Positions 2,452 through 13,997 of a DNA stretch of 13,997 bases are shown in pieces. Source of the DNA: a virus (Duplodnaviria; Heunggongvirae; Uroviricota; Caudoviricetes); the IMG/VR virus record IMGVR_UViG_2609459774_000005, positions 1 through 13,997 of that record; one strand, given 5' to 3'. The first letter of the stretch is position 1, and each line of letters starts with the position of its first letter. The notes beneath the pieces were generated by a model. That model was not told the origin of the DNA. It saw nothing but the letters and a program-made list of their open reading frames with translations, and did no database searches. Made by a program: the position numbers and the translations under genes.

Positions 2452-3279
2452 TTATTTAACCTGGATAAATGGTGTATTGGCACCGCTGGTCATGTATTGC
2501 GGCAGCGTGCCGTTCCATTTATTGATGGCTTCCAGCTCCATAACACCGGGGTTCTGACGCAGAGCTTCACCGCGTAAACGAATAGCATCGGCTTCAGCCT
2601 GGGCTTTTGTGCGAATCGCATCAGCCTGTCCGGCAGCTTCCGCGCGCAACATGTTGGCTTCCGCTTCGCGCTGTTTTACTTCCTGCTCGCGTTGCAGAGT
2701 TTTCTGGTTCGCCGTGACTTTGGCATTAATGCTGTCGATAACAGTAGGCGGGTACTCCGGCTTACCCACATATGAGAGGCTTATTACCTGAATACCGATG
2801 GGCGTCATTTCTTCCTGAATGTCTTTAAGAGCTGCATCCAGCAGCTCAGGCTTGCCGCCGTCGATAAATTTGTCGGTGGTCATTTTGCTGGTCAGTCGGT
2901 TGAGTGCGTCGGCTATCTTCTGGCGCAGGTCGGTGTCGGTAATGTCGTCCACGCCTTTGCGGTAGGTCTGAAAGACTGTGGTAACTTTGGATGGATCAAC
3001 CTTGTAGGCTACTCCGATGTGGTAACCAATGGTTGTTCCATCGCTCATCTGGAAACTGAATGGATCATCGTAGGTCTTCATCTGCTTAAAGGTCGGGAAG
3101 ATATAAACTTCAGTGTTCCAGCCTGTCCAGTAGCGACCAACACCGACCACTTCACCGACGCCTTTGTCGTCGCCAAGTTTGTTGACTTTGATGCCCACAT
3201 TACCAGGCTCAACACGATCACAACCGACAAGGCCAATGGCAGGCAGAACAATGGCTAAAGAAAAAATAATTTTTTTCAT
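2452..3279 (-). CDS. SPFH / band-7 (prohibitin-flotillin-like) lipoprotein (275 aa)
   Basis: N-terminal signal peptide with lipobox LVGC (MKKIIFSLAIVLPAIGLVGC). The central region has SPFH-like character and the C-terminus is an Ala/Glu/Arg/Gln-rich coiled coil (QREQEVKQREAEANMLRAEAAGQADAIRTKAQAEADAIRLRGEALRQ), as in band-7 proteins. The start codon overlaps the stop of the upstream membrane ORF (ATGA) and is preceded by AAGGAT. Confidence 0.85.
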   Translation of the reverse strand: MKKIIFSLAIVLPAIGLVGCDRVEPGNVGIKVNKLGDDKGVGEVVGVGRYWTGWNTEVYIFPTFKQMKTYDDPFSFQMSDGTTIGYHIGVAYKVDPSKVTTVFQTYRKGVDDITDTDLRQKIADALNRLTSKMTTDKFIDGGKPELLDAALKDIQEEMTPIGIQVISLSYVGKPEYPPTVIDSINAKVTANQKTLQREQEVKQREAEANMLRAEAAGQADAIRTKAQAEADAIRLRGEALRQNPGVMELEAINKWNGTLPQYMTSGANTPFIQVK

Positions 3280-3464
3280 CTTTTATCCTTAGTGAAAGAA
3301 AGCCCCTTATAAATGGTATAAATACATGGCGGGGTTAGAAACGTCAGTGCAAAGCCAGAAATCACCGCTACCGTATCCTTCATTGATATCAGAAACGGGA
3401 CGAGCAATCCGTAAATACATGCGATAATTGCCAGTGATATAACTATTCTGAAATAAATGTTCAT
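3276..3464 (-). CDS. Small two-helix membrane protein (62 aa), candidate NfeD-like partner of the SPFH protein
   Basis: Two hydrophobic stretches (IVISLAIIACIYGLLVPFLI and VAVISGFALTFLTPPCIYTIY). Strong RBS (GGAGG) before the ATG; stop overlaps the SPFH start. Confidence 0.6.
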   Translation of the reverse strand: MNIYFRIVISLAIIACIYGLLVPFLISMKDTVAVISGFALTFLTPPCIYTIYKGLSFTKDKR

Positions 3465-3524: not shown

Positions 3525-3917
3525 TCAGAATGGTTTTGTTGCCATCAGTTCGTAATATCCGGCGCTCCATGTGTCATATTTTCTGAACCATTTTTCTGTA
3601 TACTGTTTCCTGGCGATGAGTCTGCGCAGTCGTCTGATTGTTCGCTGGTGTGCGCGGGTGTACTCTGTGGTTGATTCTCCACGTTTCCATATTTCATTCC
3701 CGTTGAAGATAAAACGCTTGTCAGGATGGCGTTGTCGGAATCCTGAACGTTCAAAAGCGCGGGTGGTCATAAAGAATGCCAGGTAACGAATTGCCGTTTT
3801 TCGAGTGAGGCATTTTTTTGTTCTTCCGTGATGTGTTACAAAAAATAACGGGCCGACGGGTGTATCATGTTTCTGTAATGCCTGGTCAATGGCGCTGGCG
3901 GTGCGGTTGTCGATCAT
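3525..3917 (-). CDS. Hypothetical basic protein (130 aa)
   Basis: Intact ORF whose start overlaps the stop of the upstream gene (ATGA). Arg/Lys-rich C-terminus. Confidence 0.5.
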   Translation of the reverse strand: MIDNRTASAIDQALQKHDTPVGPLFFVTHHGRTKKCLTRKTAIRYLAFFMTTRAFERSGFRQRHPDKRFIFNGNEIWKRGESTTEYTRAHQRTIRRLRRLIARKQYTEKWFRKYDTWSAGYYELMATKPF

Positions 3918-4132
3918 TTCTTTATTTCTCCCGAATAACGTTCATGACTCATTATTTCCCAGTTCCGGCCGTCGTCTTTCGATAACAGCCGCCAGCGACG
4001 GTTAACCTTCAGACTGAGATATCCGTTGCGCTGTATCCGATGCGGGAATATACGTCGGCATCTGTACCGCCGCAGGACCAGCAACGCCTGCTGGTGGACC
4101 CACTCAGGAATTCGCGTTGCTGTTAATGTCAC
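3914..4132 (-). CDS. Hypothetical basic protein (72 aa), apparent GTG start
   Basis: The ORF track starts at a GTG at 4132 that is preceded by AGGAGG at a 6 nt spacing. It overlaps the upstream gene by 29 nt. The protein is Arg-rich, so the call is uncertain. Confidence 0.4.
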   Translation of the reverse strand: MTLTATRIPEWVHQQALLVLRRYRCRRIFPHRIQRNGYLSLKVNRRWRLLSKDDGRNWEIMSHERYSGEIKK

Positions 4133-4319
4133 TGGTTTCCTCCTGAGCAGGTGCTGTTATCTGATACCCCGCTCTTTCTGCCAGCCATATGAATGTATCC
4201 ATGCTGGCAATCAGCTCTCCATCGCGGACTTTGCAGACATCTGTTACCTGGCCATTTTCAATTGTCATAACGATCTGCACTTTTTCGTGCACAACAGATA
4301 CAGGGGATAAATTAGCCAT
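4104..4319 (-). CDS. Hypothetical protein (71 aa)
   Basis: Intact ORF whose ATG overlaps the stop of the upstream gene by 1 nt (TGATG). Confidence 0.45.
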   Translation of the reverse strand: MANLSPVSVVHEKVQIVMTIENGQVTDVCKVRDGELIASMDTFIWLAERAGYQITAPAQEETSDINSNANS

Positions 4320-8264: not shown

Positions 8265-8371
8265 TCACTCAACATCAATAACGGGGAGCTGTTTCGCATA
8301 AAACGGTTCCGAAACATCCAAGAACAGTTCTAAAGATATCAGCAGCTATATGATCATTTCAAGACCAAATA

Positions 8372-8483
8372 TTGATTCTGCAATTTCGGGACGTTACACT
8401 GTCTCCGCACCTTATAAAGCGGGTGCCGGGGGTCGCAGCCCGGAATTGCATACGGCGATATACGACGCGCCAGCGTCTTTTTT
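8372..8483 (+). ncRNA. Candidate leader or small RNA unit: promoter, two hairpins and an intrinsic terminator
   Basis: TTGATT (8372-8377), 17 nt spacer, TACACT (8395-8400). Downstream hairpins GCACC/GGTGC (8407-8426) and CCGGG/CCCGG (8426-8443), then terminator GACGC-gcca-GCGTC followed by six T (8464-8483). Predicted transcript about 75-80 nt. Not verified by folding. Confidence 0.3.
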
Positions 8484-8649
8484 ATCGTCCGCGCTCACGC
8501 ACGCCAGAATTATGGTGGGCTGGGCAGGGGAGCCGAAAGGCTCGCCGGTTTCCGTATGCGCCGGTACTGCGAACCCTGTTCAGTCTGCCACCAGTGAGTT
8601 TCGCAGCTCCGGTGGTGGAAGTTATCCATTGCATACGGAGGCTGCCATC

Positions 8650-9012
8650 ATGGCTACAGTCCCAACTTCCCCATACCTGAAAATTGAAGTTGTCAACGGC
8701 AAGGCCGTTATTTTCTCCCTGCATGTTGCCTGCCACTTTAAGCGCATGCACCAGAACATCGTCGACAAAATCGAGTATCTGAACTGCTCACGCGAGTTTT
8801 TTACCCGCAATTTCATACCGGGTACTTATCACATCTACGGTGACTCCCTGCGTGGTTATTACATCACCCTTGATGGCCTGATGATGCTTCAGCTTGGGTT
8901 AAGTCTGCGCACAATGCGGTACTACGAGAGCTGCATTGAAGCATTCCATGAGGCAGAGAACAGCCTGAATCTTACCGCTTTCTGCTGTAATCAATGGGAG
9001 GTGCGCCCATGA
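8650..9012 (+). CDS. Hypothetical protein (120 aa), first gene of the replication operon
   Basis: Start assigned to the ATG at 8650, preceded by GGAGG at 8637-8641. The upstream 100 in-frame codons are low-complexity Ala/Gly/Ser/Pro-rich and are treated as noncoding. Confidence 0.5.
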   Translation: MATVPTSPYLKIEVVNGKAVIFSLHVACHFKRMHQNIVDKIEYLNCSREFFTRNFIPGTYHIYGDSLRGYYITLDGLMMLQLGLSLRTMRYYESCIEAFHEAENSLNLTAFCCNQWEVRP

Positions 9013-10519: not shown

Positions 10520-10873
10520 GTGACAGCGATGATGACGATTGACCAACGTGAGAAACAAACAAGACTACAGGCGCGAATGGATGAGTTACGGGCAGAGATT
10601 GCATTTGCTCAGAATGGCGAAAAGCCATGGCCTTACCGTGCCTGTCGGGAATCTGAAGGGGTTGGATGCTGCGAAAAACACGGTAAATATCGTACGCATA
10701 TACTGGTGTGGGATGATCGGCAGGGGGGCGCTGTCTCAAAAATTTCCCGCTGTCGGGAGCATCACAACGAGCTTCATGCGGATCCGCTGGTATTCGAAGA
10801 AAAGCATGGTTCCCAGGTTGATTTAATTTTTCATTTTCTTGATCACGCCTTTGCAACCGGCGTGCTTGGGTAA
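10520..10873 (+). CDS. Hypothetical Cys/His-rich protein (117 aa), nin-region-like
   Basis: RBS GAGGTGA before the ATG. Clustered Cys/His residues (CRESEGVGCCEKHGKYRTH ... CREHHNELH) suggest metal binding; no definite family assigned. Confidence 0.5.
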   Translation: MTAMMTIDQREKQTRLQARMDELRAEIAFAQNGEKPWPYRACRESEGVGCCEKHGKYRTHILVWDDRQGGAVSKISRCREHHNELHADPLVFEEKHGSQVDLIFHFLDHAFATGVLG

Positions 10874-10885
10874 AAGAGGTTACTG

Positions 10886-11245
10886 ATGCGTATAGAGTTT
10901 GTTTTGCCTTATCCGCCAACGGTGAACACCTACTGGCGACGTCGTGACAACACATATTTTGTATCAAAAGCCGGTGAGCGTTATCGCCGGGATGTGGCGC
11001 TAATTGTTCGCGAGCAGCGGCTGAAATTAAACCTGTCCGGACGGCTGGCGATAAAGGTGATTGCAGAGCCACCGGATAAGCGCCGTCGTGACCTGGACAA
11101 TATTCTGAAAGCACCACTGGATGCACTGACACATGCGGGGTTGCTTATCGACGACGAGCAGTTTGATGAAATCAATATTGTGCGCGGACTGCCTGTTCCT
11201 GGTGGTCGGTTGGGGATAAAAATCACAGAGCTGGAGTGCGCATGA
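10886..11245 (+). CDS. rusA: RusA-family Holliday junction resolvase (119 aa)
   Basis: N-terminal LPYPPTVNTYWRRR and central RRRDLDNILKAPLDALTHAGLLIDD match the RusA pattern (LPWPPSNN...RRRDLDN...KA.FDAL). Typical nin-region position. Confidence 0.9.
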   Translation: MRIEFVLPYPPTVNTYWRRRDNTYFVSKAGERYRRDVALIVREQRLKLNLSGRLAIKVIAEPPDKRRRDLDNILKAPLDALTHAGLLIDDEQFDEINIVRGLPVPGGRLGIKITELECA

Positions 11246-11931
11246 ATAACCAGTATTTACAGTTTGTTCGTGAGCAGCTCATTATCGCCACCGCCGATTT
11301 GAGTGGGGCAACAAAAGGTCAGCTTGAAGCCTGGCAGGAGAATGCCATGTTTGATACAGGACGTTACAGACGTAAAAAAATCCGGTACCGCGATAAGGTC
11401 ACTGGAAAAATGGTAACGCTGGATAATCCACCGATCCCGGGAAAGCAATCGCTGGCGAAAGGTTCATCAATTGCCCTGGTCAGTCCGGTTGAGTTTTCGA
11501 CATCATCATGGCGACGCGCCGTTCTGTCTCTTGAAGAGCATCAGAAGGCGTGGGTGCTGTGGGTATACAGTGAAAATCCGAGTTGGGATTATCAGGTGGT
11601 CATTGCGAAATGGGCGTGGGATAAGTTTCAGGTGCATTTTGGCACCAGAAAAATTACAGGGAAAACGCTTGAGCGTCTGAAGAAATTAATCTGGCTGGCG
11701 GCGCAGGATGTCAGGGGGAGGATTACTGGGCGTGACGTCTACCAGCGACAGGAACTTGCCAGACTGTGTGGAGTTAAGCCTGACAACTGGAGCCATAATT
11801 ATGCGAACTACTGGCGTGAGATGTGCGACATTTTTAAGAAACTCGATACAGAATCCTTGATTTGCACCGTGAAAATGAGATCGCAACAAAAAGCGACCTT
11901 TTCACGACGAGATATTGCAAAAGTCAATTAA
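11242..11931 (+). CDS. Putative late-gene antiterminator (Q-like), 229 aa
   Basis: Call is by position only: last gene of the rightward early operon, immediately after rusA and immediately before a strong intrinsic terminator. No Q motif was verified. Start set at the ATG at 11242, overlapping the rusA stop (ATGA). Confidence 0.55.
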   Translation: MNNQYLQFVREQLIIATADLSGATKGQLEAWQENAMFDTGRYRRKKIRYRDKVTGKMVTLDNPPIPGKQSLAKGSSIALVSPVEFSTSSWRRAVLSLEEHQKAWVLWVYSENPSWDYQVVIAKWAWDKFQVHFGTRKITGKTLERLKKLIWLAAQDVRGRITGRDVYQRQELARLCGVKPDNWSHNYANYWREMCDIFKKLDTESLICTVKMRSQQKATFSRRDIAKVN

Positions 11932-11977
11932 ATCGCATACATTTTATGTAAATGTGATATTTTGCCGTATAGTGTGT

Positions 11978-12002
11978 AAACCCGCTTAAATGCGGGTTTT
12001 TT
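11978..12002 (+). terminator. Strong intrinsic terminator downstream of the Q-like gene
   Basis: AAACCCGC-ttaaat-GCGGGTTT followed by a T-run (11997-12002), 47 nt after the Q-like stop codon. Confidence 0.75.
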
Positions 12003-12032
12003 GCTTAACTCTGTGGACCTTTTTATCTGTAG

Positions 12033-12057
12033 TTGTAAGATATGGATATTCTTACAA
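12033..12057. promoter_or_regulatory. Perfect 8 bp inverted repeat (TTGTAAGA, 9 nt spacer, TCTTACAA) upstream of the kinase gene
   Basis: Palindrome at 12033-12057 between the terminator and the kinase start codon. Candidate operator or 5'-UTR hairpin. Confidence 0.4.
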
Positions 12058-12075
12058 TTTAGGTCGGTGAGCTTA

Positions 12076-12840
12076 ATGGAAGAACAGCACGGTAATTACT
12101 TTATAAAACGAATTCAGTTGATTGGAAGGGGTGCATTTGGCTTTGTTGAACACGTTAAGGTTTACAACCTCAACAAGGGTGAATGTGGGGATTATGCTAG
12201 AAAGGTTTTAGCCCCCGAAAAACCAGAGCTTTTGGCGCAAATAGAGCAGTTTAGAAGGCGTTTTAAAAGGGAGGTCGTGTATCAATCACATTGCGTACAT
12301 AGCAATATTGTTCCTATTTATTTGTGCGATTTGTTTGCCGAGAATCCATGGTTCATTATGGATAAAGCAGAATGTGATCTTGAGCACGAAATAACGAACA
12401 ACCTTCTTACAACAGATCAAAAAATTTCAATAGTGAAAATGGTATTAGATGGTGTAGCTCACATCCATGCGAAAGGCTATTTACACAGAGATATAAAACC
12501 ATTTAATGTCTTGCGATTTAGCGACGGAACATACAAGGTGTCTGATTTTGGTCTGGTAAAAGATACAAATCCCGAAGGGGATACCACTAAATTGACCGAG
12601 ATCGGTACCCGTATGGGAAGTACAAGATATATGGCTCCCGAGATTTTATATAATGCCGAGTATTCAGTTAAGACTGATGTTTATGCGGTGGGGCGGTTAA
12701 TTGAGGACTTAAATTTAGATGATAAAAAAATAAAGCCTATCATAGCGAAGTGTACCAGGATGGATAAAGATGATAGATATCAGACAATAGATGATGTGGC
12801 GTTTGATTTTGTGCATTCTTTTTTAAGGAGTGAGTCATGA
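12076..12840 (+). CDS. Hanks-type (eukaryotic-like) Ser/Thr protein kinase (254 aa)
   Basis: Catalytic signatures present in the canonical order: Gly-rich loop IGRGAFGFV, invariant Lys in YARKVL, alpha-C Glu in FKREV, catalytic loop LHRDIKPFN, SDFG, YMAPE, and DVYAVG. Start trimmed to the ATG at 12076. Visibly AT-rich. Confidence 0.9.
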   Translation: MEEQHGNYFIKRIQLIGRGAFGFVEHVKVYNLNKGECGDYARKVLAPEKPELLAQIEQFRRRFKREVVYQSHCVHSNIVPIYLCDLFAENPWFIMDKAECDLEHEITNNLLTTDQKISIVKMVLDGVAHIHAKGYLHRDIKPFNVLRFSDGTYKVSDFGLVKDTNPEGDTTKLTEIGTRMGSTRYMAPEILYNAEYSVKTDVYAVGRLIEDLNLDDKKIKPIIAKCTRMDKDDRYQTIDDVAFDFVHSFLRSES

Positions 12841-13580
12841 TTCAGCTGATAGCGACTTCATCATTCTCGTATCCAAAAGAACCAGGTAGGGTCAACGAAG
12901 ATTCATTGCTTCCTCCCAAAATTGTAGGGGATGGCATCTTATTTGCCGTAGCTGATGGTGTAGGTTCATACACTGGTGCCAGTCAGGCTTCATCAATGGC
13001 AATTGCTGAACTTTCAGCATTGACAAGCTTATCTTTTGACACAGTTCCGGATGTATTTGATGAAGTTAAGCGAAAGGTTATGTCGTTAGCTGATGTTAAT
13101 GATGAGTTCGATAAAGCTGCTACTACACTTACGTTTTGTTATGTTTGTGATAGCGGAATTATTATTGGTCATATTGGTGATTGTCGTTTGTATTGCATTG
13201 GAGAGAAGAAAGCATACCAATTGACGAAGGACGATACCAGGCATCAGATGCTAATTGATCAGAATATTTTTAAACCCAGAGATTTGAAGGATAAACCGGG
13301 CAAAAATATCTTAACGACGGCTATAGCCTCAAATGTTGATATGGAATACGACTGTGATTTTATCACATGGAAAGATTTACCTAGTATTAACGGGGTATAT
13401 CATCTGTGTATCATGTCTGATGGGGTTCATAACGTTTGGGAAAAACGCCCCAGATTTACATCAAATACGATGAGTAATAGTCAGAAGTTTTCTAATGGCA
13501 TTTTGCGTCGTATAGAGAGAGCCGGACCTGATGATGACTTTTCTTTAGTAAGTATAATGGTGCGTGTGACGTCAGATTAG
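12837..13580 (+). CDS. PP2C-family (PPM) Ser/Thr phosphatase (247 aa)
   Basis: PPM motifs present: VNEDS near the N-terminus, FAVADGVG (DGxGG-type metal-binding motif), IGDCRLY (GDSR-type), MSDGVHN and C-terminal GPDDDFS. The start overlaps the kinase stop (ATGA), indicating translational coupling. Confidence 0.85.
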   Translation: MIQLIATSSFSYPKEPGRVNEDSLLPPKIVGDGILFAVADGVGSYTGASQASSMAIAELSALTSLSFDTVPDVFDEVKRKVMSLADVNDEFDKAATTLTFCYVCDSGIIIGHIGDCRLYCIGEKKAYQLTKDDTRHQMLIDQNIFKPRDLKDKPGKNILTTAIASNVDMEYDCDFITWKDLPSINGVYHLCIMSDGVHNVWEKRPRFTSNTMSNSQKFSNGILRRIERAGPDDDFSLVSIMVRVTSD

Positions 13581-13650
13581 TTGTATAAACTCAGTAGGGA
13601 ATGCTAATTTCACATACAACATAGTTAAAGAAAACTTAATTTTAATGTAA

Positions 13651-13677
13651 AAAGGCTGCCCTCAGGCGGTCTTTTTA
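13651..13677. terminator. Bidirectional-looking intrinsic terminator after the phosphatase gene
   Basis: AAA-GGCTGCC-ctca-GGCGGTC-TTTTT: a 7 bp stem including two G-U wobble pairs, flanked by an A-run upstream and a T-run downstream. Confidence 0.55.
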
Positions 13678-13799
13678 TGCTCGAAAATTGATGCAGTACG
13701 TTAAACGCGCTGGTGGTTGCGAATACCGGTCTTTCAGCTTGCTGGCTTTTTAGACAAGAGTTATTGGTATGTCACGTTAACCAGAAAAGGGAAAAAGGC

Positions 13800-13997
13800 A
13801 TGCTAAAACAGCTGGATATGACCGAAACCGCCAGAGTGGTGTTTAATGAATTAAGCGTCACCGAACCGGCGACCGTCGGGGAAATTGCGCAGAATACTTA
13901 CCTTTCACGCGAACGCTGCCAGTTAATACTGACTCAGCTTGTTATGGCGGGTCTGGCAGATTATCAGTTCGGTTGTTACAGACGCCTTCCGCAGTGA
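13800..13997 (+). CDS. Small PapI/FaeA-like winged-helix regulator (65 aa)
   Basis: Start trimmed to the ATG at 13800, preceded by a purine-rich RBS. The segment EPATVGEIAQNTYLSRERCQLILTQLVMAGL resembles the PapI/FaeA family core. The stop codon is the last three bases of the window. Confidence 0.45.
   Translation: MLKQLDMTETARVVFNELSVTEPATVGEIAQNTYLSRERCQLILTQLVMAGLADYQFGCYRRLPQ

What the first reader, a model, noticed from the sequence alone, without database searches (positions are those of the whole stretch)
12003..13680. Translationally coupled Ser/Thr kinase and PP2C phosphatase pair at the Q-downstream moron slot
Two adjacent genes encode a complete Hanks-type kinase and a PP2C phosphatase joined by an ATGA overlap. 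They sit immediately after the Q-like gene and its terminator, are bracketed by terminators, are preceded by a perfect palindrome, and are visibly more AT-rich than the phage backbone, all pointing to acquired cargo. In lambdoid phages the Q-downstream slot commonly carries fitness or virulence cargo such as Shiga toxin genes, and phage- or host-encoded eukaryotic-like kinases are known to mediate phage exclusion or abortive infection. I therefore propose a kinase-effector, phosphatase-brake module. Function and target are inference.
Basis: partly seen in the sequence, partly recalled or inferred. Interest (0 to 1): 0.85.

Follow-up and report, generated by a model that had tools for sequence, protein, structure and literature searches.

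The report
Prophage kinase–phosphatase cargo cassette
An E. coli prophage carries a horizontally acquired two-gene cassette, a minimal Ser/Thr kinase translationally coupled to a PP2C phosphatase, that most likely acts as a toxin/antitoxin-like anti-phage switch; it is an undescribed two-gene relative of the published three-gene KKP system.

Summary
Window 12076-12840 encodes a 254-aa Hanks-type kinase with every catalytic motif. Window 12837-13580 encodes a 247-aa PP2C with all metal-binding motifs. The two are joined by an ATGA overlap.

Comparison with an "empty" E. coli prophage shows a precise 1.67-kb low-GC insertion at about 12003-13676. It lies right after the Q-dependent terminator tR' and carries its own 3' terminator, so it is a classic moron.

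The pair is a discrete, co-evolving unit:
- The PP2C gene follows the kinase gene in 18 of 18 loci from diverse Gammaproteobacteria.
- Mantel r is 0.85.
- It moves between accessory slots: Q-to-holin behind three unrelated Q families, spanin-to-terminase, directly downstream of cI (the lambda rexAB / 933W stk slot), small plasmids and islands.

It is not KKP: there is one kinase, no CSD or FHA domain, and the opposite gene order. It is also not PD-T4-6, Stk2 or 933W Stk.

Best reading (about 0.55): a phosphorylation-based toxin/antitoxin-like phage-exclusion module, with the kinase as effector and the phosphatase as brake or sensor. Function, targets and lysogen expression are inferred, not shown. 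No convincing own promoter was found. I classify it as a new variant of a known kind, of moderate interest.

The parts
11236..11931 (+). Late antiterminator Q gene (backbone; defines the slot)
   Evidence: PF06323 Phage_antiter_Q, E=5.2e-84. RefSeq WP_001064887.1 in identical loci.
11915..11961 (+). Inferred late promoter PR': -35 TTGCAA at 11915-11920, -10 TACATT at 11938-11943, followed by a -10-like TGnGATATT at 11953-11961, a possible sigma-dependent pause / Q-loading element
   Evidence: Read by eye. These blocks are conserved in ML35 and phiES15 (alignment A3). The match is 8/12 to consensus, below the scan threshold. This is inference.
11978..12002 (+). Resident intrinsic terminator (tR'-like), the target of Q antitermination
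   Evidence: Called by the terminator scan. RNA dG is -14.2 kcal/mol, z -3.9. The same stem is present in the empty-site prophage PSJ-22.
12003..13676 (+). Inserted low-GC cassette (moron): leader, kinase, PP2C and its own terminator
   Evidence: Alignment of the window to the empty site L114 breaks right after the tR' T-run and resumes at ATGC 13677. GC is 0.35-0.39 against 0.48-0.50 in the flanks.
12025..12064 (+). Leader hairpin; the core inverted repeat is 12033-12040 / 12050-12057
   Evidence: Found by the repeat finder. RNA dG is -11.8, z -3.9. In ML35 a paired G>T / C>G change keeps an RNA G.U pair. It is not conserved in more distant loci. Its role is unexplained.
12076..12840 (+). Minimal Hanks-type Ser/Thr kinase, 254 aa, kinase domain only
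   Evidence: Pkinase E=2.8e-33. G17xG19xxG22, K43, E66, H137-R138-D139-x-K141-xx-N144, D157-F158-G159, A187-P188-E189, D201 and R234 are invariant. AF2 pLDDT is 87.2, and only the activation loop 161-180 is low. Nearest solved relative is S. aureus Stk1/PknB, E=3.8e-35; Foldseek TM is about 0.72.
12825..12840 (+). Shine-Dalgarno AAGGAG plus ATGA stop/start overlap (translational coupling)
   Evidence: Sequence. A 4-nt ATGA/GTGA overlap is kept in 13 of 16 loci surveyed, TAATG in 1 and a 3-nt gap in 2, always with a GGAG-like SD.
12837..13580 (+). PP2C (PPM) Ser/Thr phosphatase, 247 aa, catalytic domain only
   Evidence: PF13672 E=2.1e-14. NCBIfam Stp1_PP2C E=1.4e-26, below cut-off. N20-x-D22, D40-G41-x-G43, G114-D115-x-R117, D132, S194-D195-G196 and D233-D234 are invariant. 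AF2 pLDDT is 90.9. PstP, Stp1 and tPphA give TM 0.74-0.80.
13647..13678 (+). Cassette's own 3' terminator-like hairpin with T-run
   Evidence: Inverted repeat I2. RNA dG is -18.3, z -4.5. Backbone homology resumes immediately after its T-run.
13800..13997 (+). 65-aa backbone gene (not part of the cassette)
   Evidence: phrog_331, E=2.7e-36, unknown function. GC is 0.50. It lies directly after tR' in empty-site prophages.

Best explanation
A horizontally mobile two-gene moron encodes a sensor-less, kinase-domain-only Ser/Thr kinase. A PP2C phosphatase is translated from the same mRNA by stop/start coupling.

Proposed mechanism (inferred). The kinase is the effector, or toxin. Once its Ser/Thr-rich activation loop is autophosphorylated, it phosphorylates host and/or phage proteins and arrests growth or phage development. 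The phosphatase is made in fixed or excess ratio (strong AAGGAG SD against a weak GGTGAG SD for the kinase). It keeps the kinase and its substrates dephosphorylated. Infection by another phage tips the balance, for example when a phage protein blocks the PP2C, as T4 Gp59 does to PfpC in KKP. This would give exclusion or abortive infection and would also stabilise the element.

Shown here: both enzymes look catalytically competent; the pair is a co-inherited unit; it is an insertion into the Q-downstream slot.

Inferred: toxicity, defence, the trigger, the targets and expression in the lysogen.
For: Enzymes. All catalytic motifs of both proteins are invariant in 18 of 18 family loci, and both structure models are confident.

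Obligate pairing. The PP2C gene lies directly after the kinase gene in every locus examined. The overlap and SD are conserved. Pairwise identities of the kinase and the PP2C correlate with r=0.846, 0 of 5000 permutations reaching that value.

Mobile accessory cargo. An empty site is found in 235 E. coli genomes against 49 filled. GC3 is about 0.35 against about 0.52. The slots used are:
- Q-to-holin behind PF06323, PF03589 and PF06530 antiterminators;
- spanin-to-terminase;
- directly downstream of the cI repressor on the same strand, the position of lambda rexAB and 933W stk, in E. coli SCU-113 and an Arsenophonus phage-plasmid;
- a 10.7-kb plasmid beside a RelE/ParE TA;
- islands beside NACHT, SymE, PNP_UDP_1 and SocA/Panacea genes.

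Precedent. In KKP, prophage Hanks kinases are the toxin, a PF13672 PP2C is the antitoxin, and the system defends against T4 and T-odd phages (PMC11341870).

Other points. The kinase domain matches defence-kinase HMMs: mad6 1e-39, PD-T4-6 1e-34 and Stk2 5e-28. Two independent natural indels disrupt the kinase while the PP2C stays intact, and none of the 49 complete genomes has the reverse.
Against: No experiment bears on toxicity or defence.

In this window the pair lies behind tR' in the late operon. No sigma-70 promoter of 9/12 or better was found between the terminator and the ATG. Expression in the lysogen, which a defence role needs, is therefore unproven.

PADLOC hits cover only the generic kinase domain, and the PP2C has no meaningful PADLOC hit (E=0.007).

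N-terminally truncated PP2C alleles exist in draft genomes (P0408). The kinase status there could not be checked, so the kinase-lost/PP2C-kept asymmetry is weak.

The gene order, toxin first, is the less common TA layout.
Confidence: 0.55

Rival explanations
1. Prophage or host regulatory switch. The kinase/phosphatase balance tunes lysogeny, induction or host physiology by reversible phosphorylation of a nucleoid protein or repressor, as KKP does with MvaU, without a primary defence role.
For: KKP has exactly this second role (PMC11341870). Some family members sit in the immunity region next to cI. A reversible writer/eraser pair suits regulation.
Against: The same cassette also occurs on a small plasmid and in islands with no prophage to regulate. 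It swaps between unrelated phage backbones, which argues against a backbone-specific regulatory target.
Confidence: 0.15
2. Lytic-cycle host-takeover or anti-defence kinase. It would be expressed from PR' after Q antitermination and would phosphorylate host proteins or defence systems, as T7 kinase does. The phosphatase would limit damage or reset substrates.
For: The pair is the first cargo of the late transcript, with no strong own promoter. Inducible or isolated phages keep it: phiES15 and Flotzy. T7 kinase disarms defences by pervasive phosphorylation (PMC13645617).
Against: Late-operon timing is too late for counter-defence. T7K-like kinases have a DPV motif, whereas this one has a canonical DFG. 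The rex-slot, plasmid and island locations imply action in uninduced cells. An obligately coupled antagonist is hard to reconcile with takeover.
Confidence: 0.12
3. Pure addiction (post-segregational killing) module that stabilises the prophage or plasmid, with no anti-phage function.
For: It has a TA-like architecture. It is present on small non-mobilizable plasmids next to another TA. Alleles with a disrupted kinase and an intact PP2C exist.
Against: It needs differential stability of the two proteins, for which there is no evidence. Many TA modules in prophage moron slots turn out to be defensive. This reading is not exclusive with the best explanation.
Confidence: 0.1
4. Virulence or host-interaction effector kinase of pathogenic E. 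coli, like prophage-borne NleH or OspG, or an ordinary housekeeping Stk/Stp signalling pair.
For: The 100% allele is concentrated in ETEC strains. The nearest solved relatives are the housekeeping Stk1/Stp1 and PknB/PstP pairs.
Against: The family occurs in Pseudomonas putida, Xanthomonas, Vibrio and Acinetobacter, and always with the phosphatase. There is no secretion, transmembrane or PASTA domain: the proteins are 254 and 247 aa of catalytic domain only. Only 66 of 5426 E. coli genomes carry it, always on mobile elements.
Confidence: 0.03

Closest known systems
KKP (PfpC-PfkB-PfkA) kinase-kinase-phosphatase module of Pf6 and other prophages (Guo et al. 2024, Nat Commun, PMC11341870)
   Same: It is prophage-borne. 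It has Hanks-type Ser/Thr kinase(s) plus a PF13672 PP2C. It is found on diverse temperate phages and mobile elements of Gram-negatives. [quoted passage not shown]
   Different: Here there is one kinase, not two. The kinase is 254 aa of catalytic domain with no cold-shock or FHA domain, both of which are required for KKP toxicity. The gene order is kinase then phosphatase, not phosphatase-kinase-kinase. Direct sequence comparison could not be done because KKP sequences were not retrievable. Function is untested here.
933W Stk (lambdoid prophage eukaryotic-like kinase that excludes HK97; my recollection of Tyler & Friedman 2004 and Friedman et al. 2011)
   Same: It is a eukaryotic-like kinase carried as cargo by lambdoid E. 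coli prophages. Divergent members of the present family occupy the same cI-adjacent slot.
   Different: Identity is only 25.7% over 68% of the kinase, E=5e-7. Stk has no partner phosphatase. It lies in a different slot from the one in this window.
PD-T4-6 (Vassallo et al. 2022, PMC9519451) and Stk2 (Depardieu et al. 2016)
   Same: Both are Ser/Thr kinase-based anti-phage systems. Their PADLOC HMMs match the kinase domain here (1e-34 and 5e-28).
   Different: Both are single-gene systems with extra domains. PD-T4-6 is 436 aa. The Stk2 model is 500 positions and matches only at 160-347. Neither has a phosphatase, and the matches cover only the generic catalytic core.
Housekeeping Stk1/Stp1, PknB/PstP and PpkA/PppA pairs
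   Same: They are the closest solved structures for both proteins. They are adjacent, co-transcribed kinase and PP2C genes in which the phosphatase dephosphorylates the kinase activation loop.
   Different: Those kinases are membrane receptors with PASTA, FHA or vWA-linked sensors and are core chromosomal genes. Here both proteins are bare catalytic domains on mobile elements.
Lambda RexAB and Stx as occupants of the same moron slots
   Same: The positional logic matches. Cargo downstream of cI is expressed in lysogens for exclusion. Cargo downstream of Q is flanked by tR'. In ML35 the cassette is followed by the ileZ-argN-argO tRNAs and a SASA-family carbohydrate esterase gene, which I take to be nanS-p, as in Stx phages.
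   Different: There is no sequence or mechanistic relationship.

Membership tests
Hanks-type (eukaryotic-like) Ser/Thr protein kinase | Gly-rich loop, VAIK Lys, alphaC Glu, HRDxKxxN catalytic loop, DFG, APE, subdomain IX Asp and XI Arg; bilobal kinase fold | tested here: met
   All motifs are present and invariant. Pkinase E=2.8e-33. The AF2 model has pLDDT 87 and matches PknB and BTK at TM about 0.72.
PP2C / PPM phosphatase | Metal-binding Asp residues in motifs I (xED), II (DGxGG), VIII (SDG) and XI (DD/DN); PPM beta-sandwich fold | tested here: met
   N20-x-D22, D40-G41-x-G43, S194-D195-G196 and D233-D234 are invariant. PF13672 E=2.1e-14. PstP and Stp1 give TM 0.74-0.80.
KKP (Guo et al. 2024) | PF13672 PP2C phosphatase adjacent to Pkinase gene(s) on a prophage or mobile element | tested here: met
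KKP (Guo et al. 2024) | Two kinases: a PfkA-like kinase with a C-terminal cold-shock domain and a PfkB-like kinase with a C-terminal FHA domain; order phosphatase-kinase-kinase | tested here: not met
   There is a single 254-aa kinase with only Pkinase hits. No other kinase, CSD or FHA was found in any window ORF scanned. The order is kinase then PP2C in all 18 loci.
KKP (Guo et al. 2024) | Kinase toxicity neutralised by the phosphatase; anti-phage protection | not testable with these tools
   This needs expression and plaque assays.
PD-T4-6 (PADLOC / Vassallo 2022) | Single-gene 436-aa kinase with a C-terminal extension; full-length HMM match | tested here: not met
   The best PD-T4-6 HMM aligns only at positions 11-201 of 327. 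The PD-T4-6 protein RRM76169.1 spans 1311 bp and has no partner.
Stk2 (PADLOC) | Full-length match to the roughly 500-position Stk2 model | tested here: not met
   Only model positions 160-347 of 500 are matched.
933W-type Stk | Close sequence relationship to Stk of Stx phages | tested here: not met
   25.7% identity, E=5e-7, 68% coverage.
MADS MAD6 / BREX PglW / Stk1 PASTA kinases (NCBIfam) | Score above the curated equivalog cut-off | tested here: not met
   MAD6 scores 66.7 bits against a cut-off of 460. PglW scores 20 against 990. Stk1 scores 104 against 450.
Moron (Hendrix-type accessory insertion in a lambdoid late operon) | Discrete insertion between backbone genes, deviant composition, own terminator, own promoter | tested here: inconclusive
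   The insertion with an empty site, the low GC and the 3' terminator are all shown. The own promoter is not established: the best candidates are TGGACC-N16-TAAGAT (8/12) and TACAAT (5/6), both read by eye, and the scan found none.
Toxin-antitoxin module | Toxin lethal or static alone; the cognate neighbour neutralises it | not testable with these tools
   Only indirect evidence exists: kinase-disrupted, PP2C-intact alleles, countered by truncated PP2C alleles of unknown context.

The most novel reading that the evidence does not exclude
KP is a distinct, so far uncharacterised two-gene immune family: a minimal kinase with no sensor domain, held off by a translationally coupled PP2C that is itself the phage sensor. 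Temperate phages shuttle it between their three classic lysogenic-conversion slots (downstream of cI, downstream of Q, and between lysis and terminase), and it also occurs on plasmids. If so, Ser/Thr phosphorylation switches would be a general, modular form of prophage-encoded superinfection immunity in Gammaproteobacteria.
Probability: 0.4. Interest if true: 0.65.

Novelty: new variant of a known kind. Interest (0 to 1): 0.55.

Why it matters
If the two-gene module is a working phosphorylation-based exclusion system, it would be the simplest known form of the KKP principle. It has one kinase and one phosphatase, each only a catalytic domain. That makes it a tractable model for three questions: how a phage trigger flips a kinase/phosphatase balance, which host or phage proteins must be phosphorylated to stop infection, and how such switches avoid self-toxicity.

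It is carried by pathogenic E. coli lineages (ETEC E24377A, EAEC 55989, an STEC strain) in the same slot that holds Shiga toxin genes. It could therefore influence which phages, including toxin-converting and therapeutic phages, can superinfect these strains.

Tried and rejected
- The genome-contig scan with the kinase alignment used generic HRD/DFG motifs. It returned almost only unrelated Hanks kinases, and only L002 was a family member. Context was obtained locus by locus instead.
- A megablast of the cassette against the phage collection found nothing. tblastn was needed to find phiES15 and Flotzy.
- KKP protein sequences could not be retrieved, because the supplement lists only IMG gene IDs. 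The KKP comparison is therefore by architecture only.
- The context of the truncated PP2C allele P0408 is not on record.
- The palindrome as a conserved operator was rejected. It is confined to E. coli alleles and absent from Raoultella, Yersinia, phiES15 and Flotzy leaders.
- The TTG start at 12001 was rejected. It lies in the terminator T-run, and all homologues start at the M-E-E motif.
- Relatedness to T7 kinase was rejected: DFG here against DPV there.
- No paper describing a two-gene kinase-PP2C defence pair was found in five literature searches. Absence from this library is not proof of absence.
Full report
**1. Observation**

The window is the left arm of a lambdoid E. coli prophage. 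In order it encodes:
- integrase, excisionase, an SPFH protein and a ParE-like toxin;
- a cI-like S24 repressor, Cro/YdaS and Rha;
- the isrK and C4 RNAs, replication genes, DUF968, RusA and Q.

After Q (11236-11931; PF06323, E=5e-84) come two co-directional ORFs. The first matches Pkinase at E=2.8e-33. The second matches PP2C_2 at E=2.1e-14. The mechanical ORF starts at TTG 12001, inside the terminator T-run. RefSeq annotation of identical loci and a 23-sequence alignment both place the real start at ATG 12076, giving 254 aa. The PP2C ATG at 12837 overlaps the kinase stop (ATGA) and is preceded by AAGGAG.

The kinase keeps the Gly loop, K43, E66, HRDxKxxN (137-144), DFG (157-159), APE (187-189), D201 and R234. 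The PP2C keeps N20-x-D22, D40-G41-x-G43, G114-D115-x-R117, S194-D195-G196 and D233-D234.

AlphaFold models are confident: pLDDT 87.2 for the kinase, with only the activation loop low, and 90.9 for the PP2C. They match PknB/Stk1 and PstP/Stp1/tPphA. Both proteins are bare catalytic domains.

**2. The cassette is an insertion**

GC drops from 0.48-0.50 (GC3 about 0.52) in Q and the downstream 65-aa gene to 0.38-0.39 (GC3 0.34-0.37) in the pair.

I built a chimeric query from the two flanks. It finds 235 E. coli genomes in which Q, the terminator and the 65-aa gene are contiguous. By contrast, 49 of 5426 complete genomes carry the full pair.

Alignment to one empty site (strain PSJ-22) gives the boundaries. 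Homology breaks right after the T-run of the resident terminator (11978-12002). It resumes at ATGC 13677, directly after the T-run of a second hairpin at 13647-13678. The insert is therefore about 12003-13676, or 1.67 kb: leader, kinase, PP2C and its own terminator. Both hairpins fold far better than shuffles (z -3.9 and -4.5).

The sequence between the Q stop and the first terminator contains conserved blocks: TTGCAA-N17-TACATT, then TGnGATATT. I read these as the late promoter PR' and its sigma-dependent pause element. This is inference, and the match is below the scan threshold. On that reading the upstream terminator is tR', the terminator that Q overrides, and the pair is the first cargo of the late transcript, as stx is in Stx phages. 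In strain ML35 the cassette is followed by tRNA-Ile-Arg-Arg and a SASA-family carbohydrate esterase gene, which I take to be nanS-p; this is the Stx-phage layout.

**3. The pair is a unit that moves**

Kinase homologues of about 250 aa occur across Gammaproteobacteria at 40-77% identity.

In every locus I opened, the PP2C gene immediately follows the kinase gene:

| Setting | Host or element |
|---|---|
| Prophage | E. coli (several alleles), Yersinia, Raoultella, Enterobacter, Serratia, Haemophilus |
| Chromosome, island or uncertain | E. coli YSP8-1, Vibrio, Xanthomonas, three Pseudomonas species |
| Plasmid | Acinetobacter |
| Phage-plasmid | Arsenophonus |
| Isolated or inducible phage | phiES15, Flotzy |

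The 4-nt overlap and the GGAG-type SD are conserved. Across 18 loci the pairwise identities of the two proteins correlate with r=0.846, and 0 of 5000 permutations reach that value.

The PP2C clade is small and discrete. About 20 clusters at 50% identity score E<=2e-59, followed by a gap to 4.5e-51. This is out of 43,198 PP2C hits among 1.8 billion representatives.

The slots used are telling:
- between Q and the holin, behind three unrelated antiterminator families (PF06323, PF03589, PF06530);
- between the spanin and the small terminase;
- directly downstream of the cI repressor on the same strand, in E. coli SCU-113 plus 13 further genomes and in the Arsenophonus phage-plasmid, which is the position of lambda rexAB and 933W stk;
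- a 10.7-kb plasmid next to a RelE/ParE pair;
- islands beside NACHT, SymE, PNP_UDP_1 or SocA/Panacea genes.

**4. What is known**

The closest published system is KKP (Guo et al. 2024, PMC11341870). It consists of a PF13672 phosphatase, PfpC, followed by two kinases, PfkB with an FHA domain and PfkA with a cold-shock domain. The two kinases are jointly toxic and the phosphatase is the antitoxin. KKP modules from E. coli, Salmonella, Vibrio and Shewanella protect against T4 and T-odd phages. T4 Gp59 binds and inhibits PfpC. KKP also controls Pf lysogeny through MvaU.

That study searched only for phosphatase-kinase-kinase triplets with CSD and FHA domains. It called Stk2 the only other kinase-based defence.

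The present cassette fails the defining KKP features: it has one kinase, no CSD or FHA, and the opposite gene order. It is also none of the following:
- PD-T4-6, a 436-aa single gene;
- Stk2, which gives only a partial HMM match;
- 933W Stk, at 25.7% identity;
- any NCBIfam equivalog, since all scores are far below cut-off.

PHROGs has families for both proteins, phrog_2361 ("serine-threonine kinase") and phrog_5650 (unknown function), but neither carries any functional study. Five literature searches found no description of a two-gene kinase-PP2C defence pair.

**5. Mechanism**

I commit to a phosphorylation-based toxin/antitoxin-like exclusion module, with confidence about 0.55. The kinase would be the effector. 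The coupled phosphatase would be the brake and probably the sensor.

Support comes from four sources:
- the KKP precedent;
- obligate coupling and co-evolution of the two genes;
- the rex-slot and TA-neighbour contexts;
- two independent natural indels that disrupt the kinase while the PP2C stays intact (strain 510016, and the 118UI group of five genomes), with none of the 49 complete genomes showing the reverse.

Three caveats apply:
- Truncated PP2C alleles exist in draft genomes, and their context is unknown.
- No own promoter reached the scan threshold. By eye the best candidates are TGGACC-N16-TAAGAT and a 5/6 TACAAT.
- Nothing here measures activity.

The rivals are a lysogeny or host regulatory switch, a late-expressed takeover or anti-defence kinase by analogy with T7 kinase (PMC13645617), pure addiction, and a virulence or housekeeping role. 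Each is weighed in its own section of this report.

**6. The palindrome**

It is an inverted repeat with 8-nt arms and a 9-nt spacer. As RNA it extends to a 15-bp hairpin with dG -11.8 and z -3.9. The ML35-type allele carries a paired G>T / C>G change. That change keeps an RNA G.U pair but breaks DNA symmetry. Leaders of more distant cassettes lack the repeat. Its role is unexplained.

**7. Verdict**

"Acquired cargo" is proven to the base pair. The functional proposal is plausible and now has a precedent, but it is untested. This is a new variant of a known kind and of moderate interest (0.55).

Noticed in passing
L110 5749-7214 (E. coli SCU-113) and L112 3998-5511 (Arsenophonus phage-plasmid): Divergent members of the same kinase-PP2C family (47% and 44% identity to the window proteins) sit directly downstream of the cI-like S24 repressor on the same strand. 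This is the lambda rexAB / 933W stk slot. Thirteen further E. coli genomes share the SCU-113 type.
   Followed up: partly
window 8407-8595: Rfam finds isrK (8407-8483, 57 bits) and C4 antisense RNA (8508-8595, 80 bits). Both lie inside the mechanical ORF 8350-9012, whose N-terminal part hits the Pfam Ash family. That part of the ORF is probably RNA-coding rather than protein-coding.
   Followed up: no
window 3914-4319 (- strand): A 72-aa ParE-like toxin (PF24732, E=1.6e-17) is overlapped upstream by a 71-aa ORF with no family hit. This may be a toxin-antitoxin pair in the early-left region.
   Followed up: no
window 2452-3464 (- strand): An SPFH/Band-7 protein (275 aa, E=1.2e-30) lies next to an overlapping 62-aa hydrophobic ORF (3276-3464), which lies just upstream of it on that strand. 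It is an accessory membrane pair of unknown role in the prophage early-left arm.
   Followed up: no
window 10520-10873: The DUF968 gene is only 117 aa here and matches just the last 40 profile positions. Related prophages have proteins of about 350 aa (L001, L094, L114), so the window appears to carry a deletion or mosaic joint upstream of RusA. No complete E. coli genome matches more than 84% of the window.
   Followed up: partly
L107 (strain 510016) and L108 (strain 118UI and four others): These are natural kinase-disrupted alleles. A 10-bp deletion removes the N-terminal 64 aa including the Gly loop and K43. A 1-bp deletion truncates the kinase at 218 aa. The PP2C is intact in both.
   Followed up: yes
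window 12033-12057 versus L095 (ML35-type allele): A paired substitution in the two arms of the leader inverted repeat (G>T and C>G) preserves an RNA G.U pair but not DNA symmetry. This hints at an RNA element, based on a single event.
   Followed up: partly
L110 and L093 kinases: The APE motif is not conserved in two family members: D-Y-N in SCU-113 and S-D-E in phiES15. All catalytic residues are kept in both.
   Followed up: no
window 12837-13580 (PHROG scan): The PP2C matches positions 273-520 of the 565-position profile phrog_5650. Some members of that PHROG therefore carry about 270 extra N-terminal residues. These could be fusions, but the window kinase does not hit that profile.
   Followed up: no
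L102-L104 (Enterobacter) and L092 (Flotzy): Prophages with the same Q-small ORF-DNA methyltransferase-holin backbone carry the kinase-PP2C pair after the spanin instead of after Q. The same backbone therefore accepts the cassette at two different slots.
   Followed up: partly
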